Source: Macrotis lagotis
Taxonomy: Eukaryota
Reading direction: 5' to 3'
DNA length: 64,000 bases
Assembly (NCBI RefSeq): GCF_037893015.1
Contig: NC_133658.1
Location: 742,274,877-742,338,876, forward strand
Shown here piece after piece: positions 35,901-38,699 of the stretch. The first letter of the stretch is position 1, and each line of letters opens with the position of its first letter. The notes beneath the pieces are model-generated. The model saw nothing but the letters and a program-made list of their open reading frames with translations. It did no database searches and was not told the DNA's origin. Both the position numbers and the translations under genes were made by a program.

Positions 35901-36557
35901 AGAAGACAGGCACAGTTCTAAAGTCTCCTGACCTCTTCCCCATCTATCACATGAAACAAACCTCTTTTTTTATTATATTCTTGGTTTATTTTCCATTCTT
36001 AAACTGAGCATTGAACGTTGTCCACACATATATATAAATAACACTATGGTTTCTTATACACGTTCTGCTGTCATGATTTAAAGTGTCCAATAGTGAAAAG
36101 AGGAAGGAAAAAAATCATCTTCTTGAAAGTTAAAGTTGGTTATTCTTCAGTGGTGGTATATGATTTCTCCCCCAGCTCCCTAGCCAAGGAAGCCATGTGG
36201 GAAGACAATATGCACAGATTAACATGGTGTGCCCTTGTACACAGAGGGACCCTGAATGACTCAAGGTTAGGACTAACCTTTTGAAACAACAAGCAGCTTC
36301 TTTATTTCTACAAGAGAAGATTACAGAAGAAAAGCATCGTTTTTCATTCAGCTCTTTAGGGGCTTATCCCTACTCCCTCTACCCTGGCCCAAGCTGTTAC
36401 TGTGACCCCCCGCAAGCCGCTAAGTTTATTATAAACCAATGGCTGCACAATTCCTGAAATGCACGCAACTGAAAATGTCTGTAAGCACACAGGGTCAAGT
36501 TCCCAAGTCCAAGTTAGTGTTTTATTTGGAACAGTTGGTGGCTCTGGTTCTGCTAGG

Positions 36558-38192
36558 TTATGTGCTGTTTGGGCTTGAACCAGCATCTATGGCCTCTGTG
36601 GGTTTGGCCTCCTGGACCTCAGTTTTGGATTTCTTCTTGACATTTTCATCTCCTGTGCTCTTCTTACTTTTGTCAGCTGCTGAGGTGTTGTCTGCCTCAG
36701 TATCCTGGAGGGCCTTAACATTTTCTTGGGAGCTCGGCTGGAGTTCGTAAACTTGAACTTGACCTGGGACATCTTCAGCTTTCTGTTCAAGTTTTTCCAA
36801 AATCTGCTGGACCTTTCTGATGCCATCCCTCCTGGCCTGATGCACGTCGGCATGTCCTTCAGGGTCCATGGAATCCAAGGCCAGAAGCTCTTTGGTAAAA
36901 TACTCTTCAATAATCAAATATTTTTTGTCTGTCTTCTTTCCTTCAAATGAATTCACAGCCTGCTCTAGCCCTTGGACCTTCTCCAGAATCGCTTCCACTT
37001 TCACCACACCAGGATGTTTGGGGCCTGCTTCCCCATCGGCTGGCTTCTGGGGGGCTGGTTCAGCAGAGGAAGGAATAGGGGAGGCTGGCTTGTCTTCTGC
37101 AGCTATGTTCTTGGAAGAGCTGGAGGCAGGGGGAGAGCAGGGAATGGGAGATGGGCTGGGAACTGGAGCAGAAGGGACCTTGACTTCAACCTTCTCAGGA
37201 GGAGGTAGAGACTTTTGGGAAACCGGTTTAGAATCAGTCTCCTTATGAATAACTTGAATTGGGATGTAGCCTGAAGAGACATCTTGTCCAGAAGAACTTG
37301 ATTGATTTTCTAGCTTGTTTTCAGGCTGAGGCACTGAAGATGACTCTTGGTGGACCACTGGCTGCTGAGAAGAAACCTGAGGGCTGTCTATAACAGTGTG
37401 TACTCTGGCAGGAGATGAAGAAAGCCCTGGTGCATTTGTTCTACAGGGAGATGCTTCCCGCCTGGATGTGCCCCTGGTGACCACTCTAAATGGGGACTGT
37501 GCACGGACAGCCCTGGTGTCCTGCTCATCAGGATGGACTCTGTACGTTGGCTGTGGAGATTGGCATTCTGCCCCCTGGGAAGCTGGATAGTGAGTCTTCT
37601 GTGCCTGATGATAAGCCTGGGCTGGAGGCCTGGGGAGGTTTTGCTCATGGATCACAGGAATAGGGATGTAGCCTCGGGGAAGCTGGCTTCCCTTGGTGCT
37701 CCTGGCAGCAGATGGGGGCAGCCCAGAGGAGGAGGAGCAGGAGGAGGAGTCAGAAGTGGCTGGAGACTGGGATCTCTCAAGGCCTTGAGAGGCTGGGGCC
37801 TGGACTGCTGCAGCTGCTGTTGCCTTTTCACAAGGCTTTTCTATTTTGGTAGATTCAGATGAGCCTCTGAGGGGGGATTCTGATGGGGAAAAGGACCTTA
37901 AAGGTGACTGAGATCTCAGAGGGCTTGCACTTGTTTTCACTCGTTGCATCCCAGGCTGGTGATGGGAGTAGAATGGGTGGGGCTGTCGATTTTCAAAGCC
38001 CTCATGCATAACTGGAATGGGTATGTAACCAGCACGAAGCTGGGGGTACACTGGAGTCCCCCCTCCAACAGGAGGTAGCTTGGGACTCTCCTCCGACAGG
38101 TCATTGGCTGATGATTGACTTTCCTCCGGCTCTGCCGCGGGGGCTGTCCCCAAGCCTTTCCTCAGGTGTCCTCTGGCCAGGCAGCTGCCCAT
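36558..38192 (-). CDS. BAG3: Intronless BAG3-like ORF, most likely a processed retrocopy of BAG3 (fuses parental exons 2-4). It encodes three IPV motifs, a PxxP region and a C-terminal BAG domain, but no WW domain.
   Basis: Continuous 592-codon frame from 38336 down to 36558. The first position (38336) is GTG with an in-frame TAG a few codons upstream; the first ATG is at 38192-38190. The translation matches BAG3 hallmarks: [91 protein letters not shown]...[19 protein letters not shown]. No introns, although parental BAG3 has 4 exons. AATAAA signals on the minus strand at ~36425-36430 and ~36301-36306. Confidence 0.75.
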
Positions 38193-38335
38193 CCGACCCA
38201 GGCCTCCCCTCTCTTCCAGGCCCCGCTCCCCAACCGTAGCCTCTCCCCCTCCCCCGGCCCGGGCTCTCTCGGCATTTCGCTCCGGCCTTCTTCTCCTTTT
38301 CCACTCGTCTCTCTCTCTCTCTGTGGCCTCAGTCA

Positions 38336-38600
38336 CGCGGGGGCTTCTTGCCGCTTCAGGAGAACGGAAGGTCCTCTTCAGCAGGGCCCGGGGGGCAGGT
38401 CGGGGGCGGCAGTTAGGAAGTATCTAAAGAGACCCTCGGGAGTCTCCTCTTCTCCTTGGAAGTGGCCGGAATCAAAAGCAGGAGCGAAGTCTGAGACTGA
38501 ACGGCTTGGGAGACTCCATGGAGATGAGGGCAGGGGAAGGCGGAAGCCCCGCCCCCGAAACAAACCTCTTAAAAGATATCCGATCCAGAAAATCCAGAAA
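38336..38600 (-). pseudogene. BAG3: Degraded 5' part of the BAG3 copy: 5'UTR-like GC-rich leader and remnant of the WW-domain coding segment (frameshifted and shortened).
   Basis: Alternate frame gives ...[11 protein letters not shown], resembling BAG3 N-terminus ...GDRDPLPPGWEIKID. 'ttccggccacttcc' resembles the BAG3 leader 'agccggccagttgc'. A GC box (gccccgcccc) and a (GA)n insertion at 38305-38320 are present. An in-frame TAG lies just upstream of the long ORF. Confidence 0.45.
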
Positions 38601-38699
38601 GAAAAGCCAGAAGAACAGCTACCTCAGGATTTGTCTTCCGCAGCAGCCTTGGACAAATACAGACGGTTGAATCTGGGCTCCAAGGGAGGATCTGCCCCA

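What the first reader, a model, noticed from the sequence alone, without database searches (positions are those of the whole stretch)
36300..38620. Intronless, WW-less BAG3 paralog (processed retrocopy) with a fully open 592-codon frame
Parental BAG3 is a 4-exon gene. Here everything from the first IPV motif to the BAG domain and C-terminus is encoded in one uninterrupted frame on the minus strand, the hallmark of retroposition. Homology is strong across the length: three (Y/H)IPI(P/Q)V motifs, a Ser/Pro-rich PxxP region, and a BAG domain ([16 protein letters not shown]...[24 protein letters not shown]...[19 protein letters not shown]). The region encoding the N-terminal WW domain is present only as a frameshifted, shortened remnant, and an in-frame TAG sits just upstream. 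A neutral pseudogene of this size rarely keeps ~1.7 kb free of stops unless it is young or under selection. A WW-less BAG3 would still bind HSP70 (BAG domain) and small HSPs HSPB8/HSPB6 (IPV motifs), but could not engage PPxY partners such as SYNPO2, LATS and AMOTL that couple BAG3 to autophagy and Hippo signalling. It is therefore a candidate dominant-modulator paralog.
Basis: partly seen in the sequence, partly recalled or inferred. Interest (0 to 1): 0.85.

Follow-up and report, generated by a model that had tools for sequence, protein, structure and literature searches.

The report
Young BAG3 processed pseudogene lacking exon 1
This is an ordinary, fairly young LINE-made processed copy of a bilby-type BAG3 mRNA that never contained the WW-encoding first exon; its reading frame is still open, but its amino-acid changes look like neutral decay, not a preserved new gene.

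Summary
A 592-codon open frame (36558-38336, minus strand) encodes BAG3 exons 2-4 with no introns, three IPV-type motifs and a BAG domain, and has no WW domain.

It is a genuine L1-type retrocopy, with these hallmarks:
- perfect 14-nt target-site duplications (38570-38557 and 35966-35953)
- a TCTT/AAAA nick site
- AATAAA followed by a short A-run
- exact exon-exon joints

The true extent is 35967-38556, not 36300-38620.

The "frameshifted WW remnant" is wrong. Exon 1 is absent. In its place is an unrelated 433-nt GC-rich non-coding leader, joined exactly at the exon-2 acceptor. The source RNA was therefore an alternatively initiated or chimeric spliced transcript.

Its closest relative is bilby BAG3, at 95% amino-acid identity with no gaps. 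Of 25 differences, about 21 arose in the retrocopy and 2 in the parent. Nine fall in columns invariant across 103 orthologs. Six lie in the BAG domain, including the equivalent of human R477H, a cardiomyopathy variant that uncouples HSP70. Many are CpG transitions.

The canonical start codon is missing, and the only usable ATG sits behind two upstream ATGs.

An intact frame at this divergence has roughly 1-13% probability under neutrality. That is unusual but not compelling. The most likely reading is a young retropseudogene.

The parts
38557..38570 (-). 5' target-site duplication AAGAGGTTTGTTTC, preceded by TTTT
   Evidence: Identical 14-mer at both ends of the insert (coordinates). A chance 14-mer match between the two searched flanks is about 1e-4.
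38124..38556 (-). 433-nt leader of unknown origin. GC 65%, CpG o/e 0.55. Starts GGGGGCGGGGCTTCCG, ends ...CCGGAG, and is joined exactly to the first base of BAG3 exon 2. Non-coding.
   Evidence: Lies inside the TSDs. No similarity to BAG3 exon 1/5'UTR. No match anywhere in the BAG3 loci of wallaby and dunnart (+/-10 kb) or Dromiciops (+/-3 kb), while the 3'UTR control gave E 1e-111 to 1e-122. No protein homolog in any of the three sense-strand reading frames, no Rfam family, no other copy in the window.
38472..38519 (-). Upstream ORF 1 (ATG 38519, 15 codons) in the leader
38162..38275 (-). Upstream ORF 2 (ATG 38275, A at -3, 37 codons), out of frame and overlapping the first in-frame ATG
36558..38336 (-). 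Mechanical 592-codon ORF. The first in-frame ATG is at 38192 (context GGTCGGATGG) and would give 23 leader-encoded residues plus BAG3 residues 62-582.
   Evidence: No gene with this product is on record.
37776..38123 (-). BAG3 exon 2-derived segment, containing the first IPV motif (38030-38010)
   Evidence: blastn to wallaby and Dromiciops exon 2 at 84-85% identity. Boundaries.
37377..37775 (-). BAG3 exon 3-derived segment, containing the second IPV motif (37673-37653)
36558..37376 (-). BAG3 exon 4 coding part: third IPV-like motif 37271-37251, BAG domain 36998-36780, stop TAA 36560-36558
36780..36998 (-). BAG domain carrying six retrocopy-specific substitutions at invariant residues: M465I, L470F, V480M, R485H, R489H, V496I (bilby numbering). 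R485H and R489H correspond to primate R473H and R477H.
   Evidence: Pfam score 59.5 bits against 65.5-70.5 in nine orthologs.
35972..36557 (-). BAG3 3'UTR with polyadenylation signal AATAAA at 35990-35985
   Evidence: Aligns to the 3'UTRs of wallaby, Dromiciops and dunnart. Coordinates.
35967..35971 (-). Short poly(A) remnant: 5 A, or a 7-A run counting the first two bases of the TSD
35953..35966 (-). 3' target-site duplication AAGAGGTTTGTTTC

Best explanation
A LINE-1-type reverse transcriptase copied a spliced, polyadenylated BAG3 transcript into a LINE-rich intergenic or intronic region of a bilby-lineage genome. It used target-primed reverse transcription at a TCTT/AAAA site.

The template was not the canonical mRNA. 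It carried a 433-nt GC-rich non-coding first exon (or exons) spliced directly onto exon 2. WW-encoding exon 1 and the normal start codon were therefore never present.

Since insertion the copy has evolved without detectable protein-level constraint, as a retropseudogene. I roughly infer an age of 5-15 million years. The frame is still open mainly because the copy is only about 2% diverged.

Shown:
- the retroposition hallmarks
- the absence of exon 1
- the exact splice-site junction of the leader
- the excess and placement of amino-acid changes

Inferred:
- neutrality, since no dN/dS could be computed
- the origin of the leader as an alternative first exon or an upstream-gene exon
- the lack of translation, from the upstream ATGs
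- the age
For: Retroposition:
- 14/14 TSDs, a TTTT|AA target, AATAAA plus an A-run, and exon 2/3 and 3/4 joints exactly where wallaby has GT-AG introns.

Exon 1 absent:
- The leader starts inside the TSD and ends at the exon-2 acceptor.
- It has no similarity to exon 1/5'UTR, although wallaby and Dromiciops align at about 80% across that whole region.

Source lineage:
- 95% identity, with no gaps, to Macrotis lagotis BAG3. Other marsupials reach at most 78%.

Relaxed constraint:
- Of 25 differences, about 20-21 are derived in the copy and 2 in the parent (binomial p = 7e-5, or 0.004 in the conservative count).
- 9 of 25 fall in the 25% of columns that are >=98% invariant in 103 orthologs, which is not depleted (p = 0.24). 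For bilby, wallaby and Dromiciops BAG3 the counts are 2/180, 0/176 and 0/162 (Fisher p = 7e-8 against the bilby parent).
- About 7-8 of the changes are CpG transitions.
- The BAG-domain score is 8 bits below the parent.
- R489H equals human R477H, which decreases BAG3-HSP70 complex formation (PMC8619055, PMC10879032).

Translation:
- There is no canonical ATG. The first in-frame ATG has a weak -3 C and lies inside an overlapping uORF.

Open frame and annotation:
- Simulation shows that about 30 neutral substitutions give about 21 amino-acid changes and leave the frame stop-free in 25% of runs.
- Intact retrocopies are common: 613 of 3900 families are intact, and fewer than half of the intact families tested show purifying selection (PMC4772013).
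- No protein identical to this ORF is on record.
Against: - There is not a single indel or stop in 1563 nt. The indel:substitution ratio measured in marsupial BAG3 introns is 0.13. With it, about 2.4-4 indels would be expected. The joint probability of an intact frame under neutrality is then roughly 1-13%, depending on how CpG changes and sequence context are treated.
- All three IPV-type motifs and both RSQS motifs are intact, though only about one hit would be expected by chance.
- dN/dS could not be computed, because the bilby BAG3 DNA was not retrievable.
- No expression data are available.
- The leader's origin is unresolved.
Confidence: 0.78

Rival explanations
1. A functional WW-less BAG3 retrogene. 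It would be translated from ATG 38192 and act as a modulator that binds small HSPs, 14-3-3 proteins and possibly HSP70, but not PPxY partners.
For: The frame is open for 592 codons with no indel relative to the parent. The probability of this under neutrality is about 1-13%. The IPV and RSQS motifs are intact. The BAG domain is still well above the Pfam threshold. The GC-rich leader with Sp1- and ETS-like motifs could carry some promoter activity (inference).
Against: - About 21 derived changes against 2 in the parent.
- 36% of retro-parent differences fall at invariant columns.
- Six BAG-domain hits, including the R477H equivalent.
- A CpG-decay signature.
- No canonical start codon and two upstream ATGs.
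- No identical protein on record.
Confidence: 0.08
2. A transcribed but non-coding retrocopy, for example an antisense or sponge RNA regulating parental BAG3, or an exon donor for a host transcript.
For: Many retrocopies are transcribed (PMC4772013). The copy keeps the full 3'UTR and a CpG-rich leader.
Against: There is no expression evidence and no conservation test is possible. The flanks are LINE fragments, with no recognisable promoter.
Confidence: 0.1
3. The leader was joined by reverse-transcriptase template switching to another RNA, or the copy was 5'-truncated with later sequence replacement, rather than by splicing.
For: L1 chimeric retrocopies exist (own knowledge). The leader has no detectable homolog in three marsupial BAG3 loci.
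Against: The junction falls to the nucleotide on the exon-2 acceptor, and the leader ends in the exon-end consensus AG. The prior for that is about 1 in 2000 positions. There is no A-tract or small-RNA match at the junction.
Confidence: 0.1
4. An assembly artefact or cDNA contamination, not a genomic insertion.
For: None beyond the lack of introns.
Against: There are perfect TSDs at an L1-type target, embedded between LINE fragments. The copy has 25 amino-acid differences from the annotated parent and a non-canonical leader.
Confidence: 0.01

Closest known systems
L1-mediated processed pseudogenes / retrocopies of mammalian genes (as catalogued in therians, e.g. Carelli et al. 2016, PMC4772013)
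   Same: Intronless, flanked by TSDs, poly(A) signal and A-run, L1 endonuclease-type target. It lies at a LINE-flanked locus, and its product differs from the annotated WW-containing bilby BAG3. Low divergence from the parent, with the ORF still intact as in about 16% of retrocopy families.
   Different: It derives from a non-canonical transcript in which an unrelated 433-nt leader replaces exon 1. The poly(A) remnant is unusually short, at about 5-7 A.
BAG3 (BAG family molecular chaperone regulator 3), four-exon parental gene; closest is Macrotis lagotis BAG3 (P0001)
   Same: 95% identical over residues 62-582. IPV motifs, RSQS 14-3-3 motifs, the PxxP-rich region and the BAG domain are all recognisable.
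   Different: No exon 1, so no WW domain and no native start codon. Six substitutions at invariant BAG-domain residues, including the R477H equivalent. No introns.
Retrocopies as 'fossils' of alternative or chimeric transcripts (own knowledge: e.g. Shemesh et al. 2006 PNAS), and annotated BAG3 gene models with foreign N-termini joined at exon 2 (P0011, P0066, P0069, P0073)
   Same: A foreign 5' segment is joined exactly at the exon-2 boundary.
   Different: Those gene models may be annotation artefacts, and their N-termini are unrelated to this leader. Here the junction is fixed in genomic DNA inside TSDs, so a real spliced RNA must have existed.

Membership tests
L1-mediated processed retrocopy | Parental introns precisely absent (exon-exon joints) | tested here: met
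   Exon 2/3 joint CTTGAG|AGATCC and exon 3/4 joint CCTCAG|GTTTCT fall at the wallaby GT-AG intron positions.
L1-mediated processed retrocopy | Target-site duplications flanking the insert | tested here: met
   AAGAGGTTTGTTTC, 14/14 identical, at 38570-38557 and 35966-35953.
L1-mediated processed retrocopy | Poly(A) tail after a polyadenylation signal at the 3' end | tested here: met
   AATAAA at 35990-35985, then an A-run at 35971-35967 directly abutting the 3' TSD. The tail is short, about 5-7 A.
L1-mediated processed retrocopy | L1 endonuclease-type target (TTTT/AA-like on the nicked strand) | tested here: met
   Pre-insertion site ...CTTTT|AAGAGG..., which is TCTT/AAAA on the primed strand (the consensus is from own knowledge).
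L1-mediated processed retrocopy | Located away from the multi-exon parental locus | tested here: inconclusive
   The flanks are LINE fragments, not BAG3 introns or neighbours. The annotated bilby BAG3 protein has exon 1 and differs at 25 residues. The parent locus itself could not be fetched.
Functional BAG3-family protein / retrogene | BAG domain | tested here: met
   PF02179 at 59.5 bits (cut-off 23.4). This is 6-11 bits below the nine orthologs scanned.
Functional BAG3-family protein / retrogene | WW domain (defines BAG3 among BAG proteins) | tested here: not met
   No PF00397 hit. Exon 1 is absent at the DNA level.
Functional BAG3-family protein / retrogene | IPV motifs for small-HSP binding | tested here: met
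   GYIPIPV twice and GYIPIQV once, all intact. Actual binding was not tested.
Functional BAG3-family protein / retrogene | Purifying selection on the coding sequence | tested here: not met
   Protein-level proxies only. Relative rate is 21 against 2 (p = 7e-5). 9/25 differences fall at invariant columns against an expected 25%, while orthologs show 0-1%. Formal dN/dS is not testable without the parent's CDS.
Functional BAG3-family protein / retrogene | HSP70-binding residues of the BAG domain conserved | tested here: not met
   R485H and R489H correspond to primate R473H and R477H. R477H decreases BAG3-HSP70 complex formation. R480/R481 equivalents are retained.
Functional BAG3-family protein / retrogene | Transcription and translation | not testable with these tools
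   No RNA-seq, CAGE or proteomics are available. Sequence context is unfavourable: two uATGs and a weak Kozak context.
Chimeric retrocopy by RT template switching | Junction at an arbitrary position, with the 5' partner ending in the 3' end of another RNA (often a small RNA) | tested here: not met
   The junction is exactly at the exon-2 acceptor. No Rfam family lies in the leader.

The most novel reading that the evidence does not exclude
The copy is an expressed, translated bilby-specific retrogene. Its product (23 new N-terminal residues beginning MGSC, then BAG3 residues 62-582) has lost both WW-mediated partners and, through the R473H/R477H-type changes, tight HSP70 coupling. It keeps the IPV, 14-3-3 and PxxP modules, so it could act as a decoy or modulator for small HSPs. 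It would be inherited from a previously unknown exon-1-less BAG3 isoform that exists in marsupials.
Probability: 0.05. Interest if true: 0.6.

Novelty: new member of a known kind. Interest (0 to 1): 0.2.

Why it matters
As a retropseudogene it matters little beyond annotation: it should not be called a BAG3 paralog. It also provides about 25 diagnostic substitutions, which help avoid mis-mapping BAG3 reads in bilby data.

Its modest scientific value is as a genomic fossil. It shows that a spliced BAG3 transcript with a foreign first exon, lacking the WW exon, was present in the germline of the bilby lineage. If the small residual chance of function were realised, it would be a natural experiment separating BAG3's small-HSP-binding modules from its WW and HSP70 functions.

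Tried and rejected
- Exact-product look-ups of the window ORF and of the bilby parent P0001 found nothing. No parent CDS was available, so no dN/dS and no synonymous-site dating could be done.
- I looked for a WW or exon-1 remnant in three ways: local and global DNA alignment against exon 1/5'UTR of three marsupials on both strands, and translated alignment against the bilby exon-1 peptide. All were at shuffle level. The 'AGGGGE' match that BLASTP produced is low-complexity chance.
- I looked for the origin of the leader, and every search was negative.
  - blastn and nhmmer against the wallaby, dunnart and Dromiciops BAG3 loci with flanks up to 10 kb
  - the rest of the window
  - Rfam
  - a three-frame protein search against 5.8 billion proteins
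- I rejected a 5' inversion (twin priming) because there are no minus-strand matches.
- I rejected retention of the intron-1 3' end because the conserved polypyrimidine tract is absent.
- I rejected an L1-antisense-promoter exon because the leader has no similarity to the LINE sequence in the window.
- I tried to find a paralogous 'empty site' in other LINE copies of the window. None spans the junction.
- I considered APOBEC-type editing to explain the G>A excess. The contexts are CpG, not GA/GG, so I rejected it.
- The sigma-70 promoter scan was not used, as it does not apply to a mammalian genome.
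Full report
**1. What is in the sequence**

The ORF tool lists a 592-codon frame at 36558-38336 on the minus strand. 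It has no WW domain.

A search of 5.8 billion proteins returns only BAG3 orthologs. The best hit is BAG3 of the greater bilby, Macrotis lagotis (P0001, 582 aa, with WW), at 95% identity. Wallaby, Dromiciops, wombat and dunnart follow at 68-78%. The pairwise alignment to P0001 is collinear and gap-free from parental residue 62 to the C-terminus.

**2. It is a genuine processed retrocopy, and its limits differ from the finding**

I fetched the BAG3 genes of tammar wallaby (L001/L004), Dromiciops (L002) and fat-tailed dunnart (L003). All have four coding exons, and exon 1 encodes residues 1-64 including the WW domain.

The window sequence aligns as three abutting blocks:
- 38123-37776, exon 2
- 37775-37377, exon 3
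- 37376-35967, exon 4 plus the whole 3'UTR

The joints fall exactly where wallaby has GT...AG introns.

At the 3' end, AATAAA (35990-35985) is followed by a short A-run (35971-35967) and then AAGAGGTTTGTTTC. The same 14-mer occurs once more at 38570-38557, preceded by TTTT. That gives perfect target-site duplications around a 2,590-nt insert (38556-35967). The target reads TCTT/AAAA on the primed strand, which is the LINE-1 endonuclease type (consensus from own knowledge).

The flanks are LINE fragments. A LINE 3' end lies at 35230-35850. On the other side are a coiled-coil ORF1-like frame at 39207 and a reverse-transcriptase ORF at 42939. cDNA contamination or misassembly is therefore excluded for practical purposes.

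The finding's 3' limit (36300) cuts the 3'UTR, and its suggested place for the A-tail (36.28-36.41 kb) is wrong.

**3. The WW region is not a decayed remnant; exon 1 was never there**

BAG3 homology stops to the nucleotide at the exon-2 acceptor (38123). The blastn alignment appears to begin two bases earlier, because the preceding two bases, AG, mimic the intron's terminal AG.

The 433 nt between the 5' TSD and exon 2 (38556-38124; GC 65%, CpG o/e 0.55) show no similarity to exon 1 or to 600 nt of 5' flank in wallaby or Dromiciops, on either strand:
- Local alignment scores are 23-25 against 22 +/- 3 for shuffles. Wallaby against Dromiciops scores 909.
- Global alignment of the last 192 nt to the 192-nt coding exon 1 of three marsupials gives z = 0.8-1.3. 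Controls score 158-174 against -17.
- Translated comparison with the bilby exon-1 peptide lies within the shuffle range.

Wallaby and Dromiciops align at about 80% through the entire promoter, 5'UTR and proximal intron 1, so a canonical 5' region would have been detected.

The leader also has:
- no match anywhere in the three BAG3 loci, with up to 10 kb of flank, while the 3'UTR control scores E = 1e-111 to 1e-122
- no second copy in the window
- no Rfam family
- no protein homolog in any of the three sense-strand reading frames

The leader lies inside the TSDs, ends in the exon-end consensus AG, and meets exon 2 precisely at its acceptor. The simplest reading is that the retroposed RNA was a spliced transcript with a different, non-coding first exon, either an alternative promoter or an upstream-gene chimera. 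RT template switching would have to hit the exon boundary by chance, about 1 in 2000. Where the leader comes from remains unknown.

**4. Is the copy under selection?**

The bilby BAG3 DNA could not be retrieved, so I used protein-level tests polarised by outgroups.

*Relative rate.* Of the 25 differences between the copy and the bilby parent (excluding the junction codon):
- about 20-21 are derived in the copy
- 2 are derived in the parent (S85, A373)
- 3 are ambiguous

The relative-rate binomial gives p = 7e-5, or 0.004 if all ambiguous sites are assigned against the copy.

Only 2-5 changes sit on the parental side. This also means the window comes from the bilby or a very close relative, and that the copy post-dates most bilby-lineage BAG3 evolution.

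*Placement of the changes.* 25% of the 522 aligned columns are >=98% invariant in 103 orthologs. Nine of the 25 differences (36%) fall in them. This is no depletion relative to random placement (p = 0.24). For the real BAG3 proteins of bilby, wallaby and Dromiciops, 2/180, 0/176 and 0/162 of their deviations from consensus do so. Fisher's test gives p = 7e-8 against the bilby parent and 1e-11 against the three pooled.

*BAG domain.* Six hits lie in the 73-residue BAG domain: M465I, L470F, V480M, R485H, R489H and V496I. Every one of 103 orthologs, or 102 of 103 for R485, has the parental residue. The domain's HMM score drops to 59.5 bits, against 65.5-70.5 in nine orthologs.

In 575-residue primate numbering, R485H and R489H are R473H and R477H. 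R477H (c.1430G>A, the same CGN>CAN change) is a dilated-cardiomyopathy variant reported to decrease BAG3-HSP70 complex formation (PMC8619055 and PMC10879032).

*Mutation spectrum.* Codon comparison with the outgroups shows that about 7-8 of the 21 derived changes are CpG transitions. Half of the CpGs conserved between wallaby and Dromiciops have decayed in the copy. That is the spectrum of methylated, unconstrained DNA.

**5. The open frame**

Simulating neutral substitutions with CpG hypermutability on the 1563-nt BAG3-derived frame shows that about 30 substitutions reproduce about 21 amino-acid changes. The frame stays stop-free in 25% of runs.

Three CGA codons that are one CpG transition away from TGA happen to be intact. 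The chance of that is about 0.57 at the observed CpG decay rate (the 0.57 is my arithmetic).

Indels are the tighter constraint. In 23 kb of aligned wallaby-Dromiciops BAG3 introns I count 0.13 indel events per substitution.
- Taken at face value, this predicts about 4 indels and P(no frameshift) of about 0.04.
- Scaling to non-CpG substitutions only, and allowing for fewer simple repeats in coding-type sequence, gives about 0.15-0.4 (my estimate).

The joint probability of an intact frame under neutrality is thus roughly 1-13%. That is noteworthy, and it is the only evidence favouring constraint. It is weak, though, because the locus was selected for having an open frame. Intact retrocopies are also common: 613 of 3900 retrocopy families are intact, and only 271 of 665 intact families tested show purifying selection (PMC4772013).

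**6. Coding potential**

The native ATG is absent. The first in-frame ATG (38192, context GGTCGGATGG, C at -3) would add 23 leader-encoded residues ([23 protein letters not shown]) to BAG3 residues 62-582.

It is preceded by two upstream ATGs. One is at 38519 (15 codons). The other is at 38275 (A at -3, 37 codons, out of frame), and its ORF overlaps the 38192 ATG. Under the scanning model this disfavours translation (inference). No gene with this product is on record. No near-identical protein appears among the hits.

**7. Verdict**

The object is a lineage-specific L1-mediated retrocopy of BAG3, roughly 5-15 million years old. That age is my inference from about 1.2-2% divergence and the intron-derived rate. 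The copy was made from an exon-1-less spliced transcript and, by every test available here, is drifting as a pseudogene.

The 'WW remnant' claim is wrong. The functional interpretation is unlikely, at about 5-8%.

The mildly interesting residue is twofold: the fossil evidence for a BAG3 transcript with a foreign first exon, and the somewhat improbable absence of indels.

Decisive tests need the bilby genome and transcriptomes: branch dN/dS against the parental CDS, locating the leader, RNA-seq with diagnostic substitutions, and presence or absence of the copy in bandicoots.

Noticed in passing
P0004 (UniProt A0A4X2L261, Vombatus ursinus 'BAG cochaperone 3'), not in the window: The wombat entry deviates at 10 columns invariant in 103 orthologs. 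It lacks residues across the exon 1/2 junction, has a weak WW score (29 bits against about 43) and has an aberrant C-terminus. It may itself be a retrocopy or a poor gene model.
   Followed up: no
P0011 (Fukomys), P0066 (Myodes), P0069 (Condylura), P0073 (Eschrichtius), not in the window: These annotated BAG3 models carry unrelated N-termini joined exactly at exon 2 and lack the WW domain. That is the same architecture as the retrocopy. They are either artefacts of a missing GC-rich exon 1 or hints of real alternative first exons.
   Followed up: partly
window 39207-44829 (+) and 35230-35850 (+): There are LINE-1-like elements on the plus strand on both sides of the insert. They comprise a coiled-coil ORF1-like frame at 39207-39785, a reverse-transcriptase ORF at 42939-43433 (Pfam RVT_1), an ORF2 C-terminal region at 44386-44829, and a second LINE 3' end at 35230-35850 that is 71% identical to 44435-44821.
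   Followed up: partly
window 55818-56261 (-): A 147-aa ORF has a weak match to the MLV integrase C-terminal domain (E = 0.005, below the Pfam cut-off). It is probably an endogenous retrovirus fragment.
   Followed up: no
window 52000-54000, especially 52557-53190: A GC-rich island (GC 0.52 in a ~0.36 background) has long overlapping ORFs on both strands that look like Gly/Pro/Arg-rich noise. It resembles a CpG island and could be the promoter or first exon of a host gene.
   Followed up: no
window 14227-14790 (+): An ORF contains a long run of leucine codons (a CTN-type simple repeat), which is a microsatellite and not a gene.
   Followed up: no
window 38192-38124 (-): The leader-encoded N-terminus MGSCLA... 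has Gly2 and Cys4, superficially like an N-myristoylation/palmitoylation signal. I treat this as chance in a non-coding exon (motif knowledge is my own).
   Followed up: no
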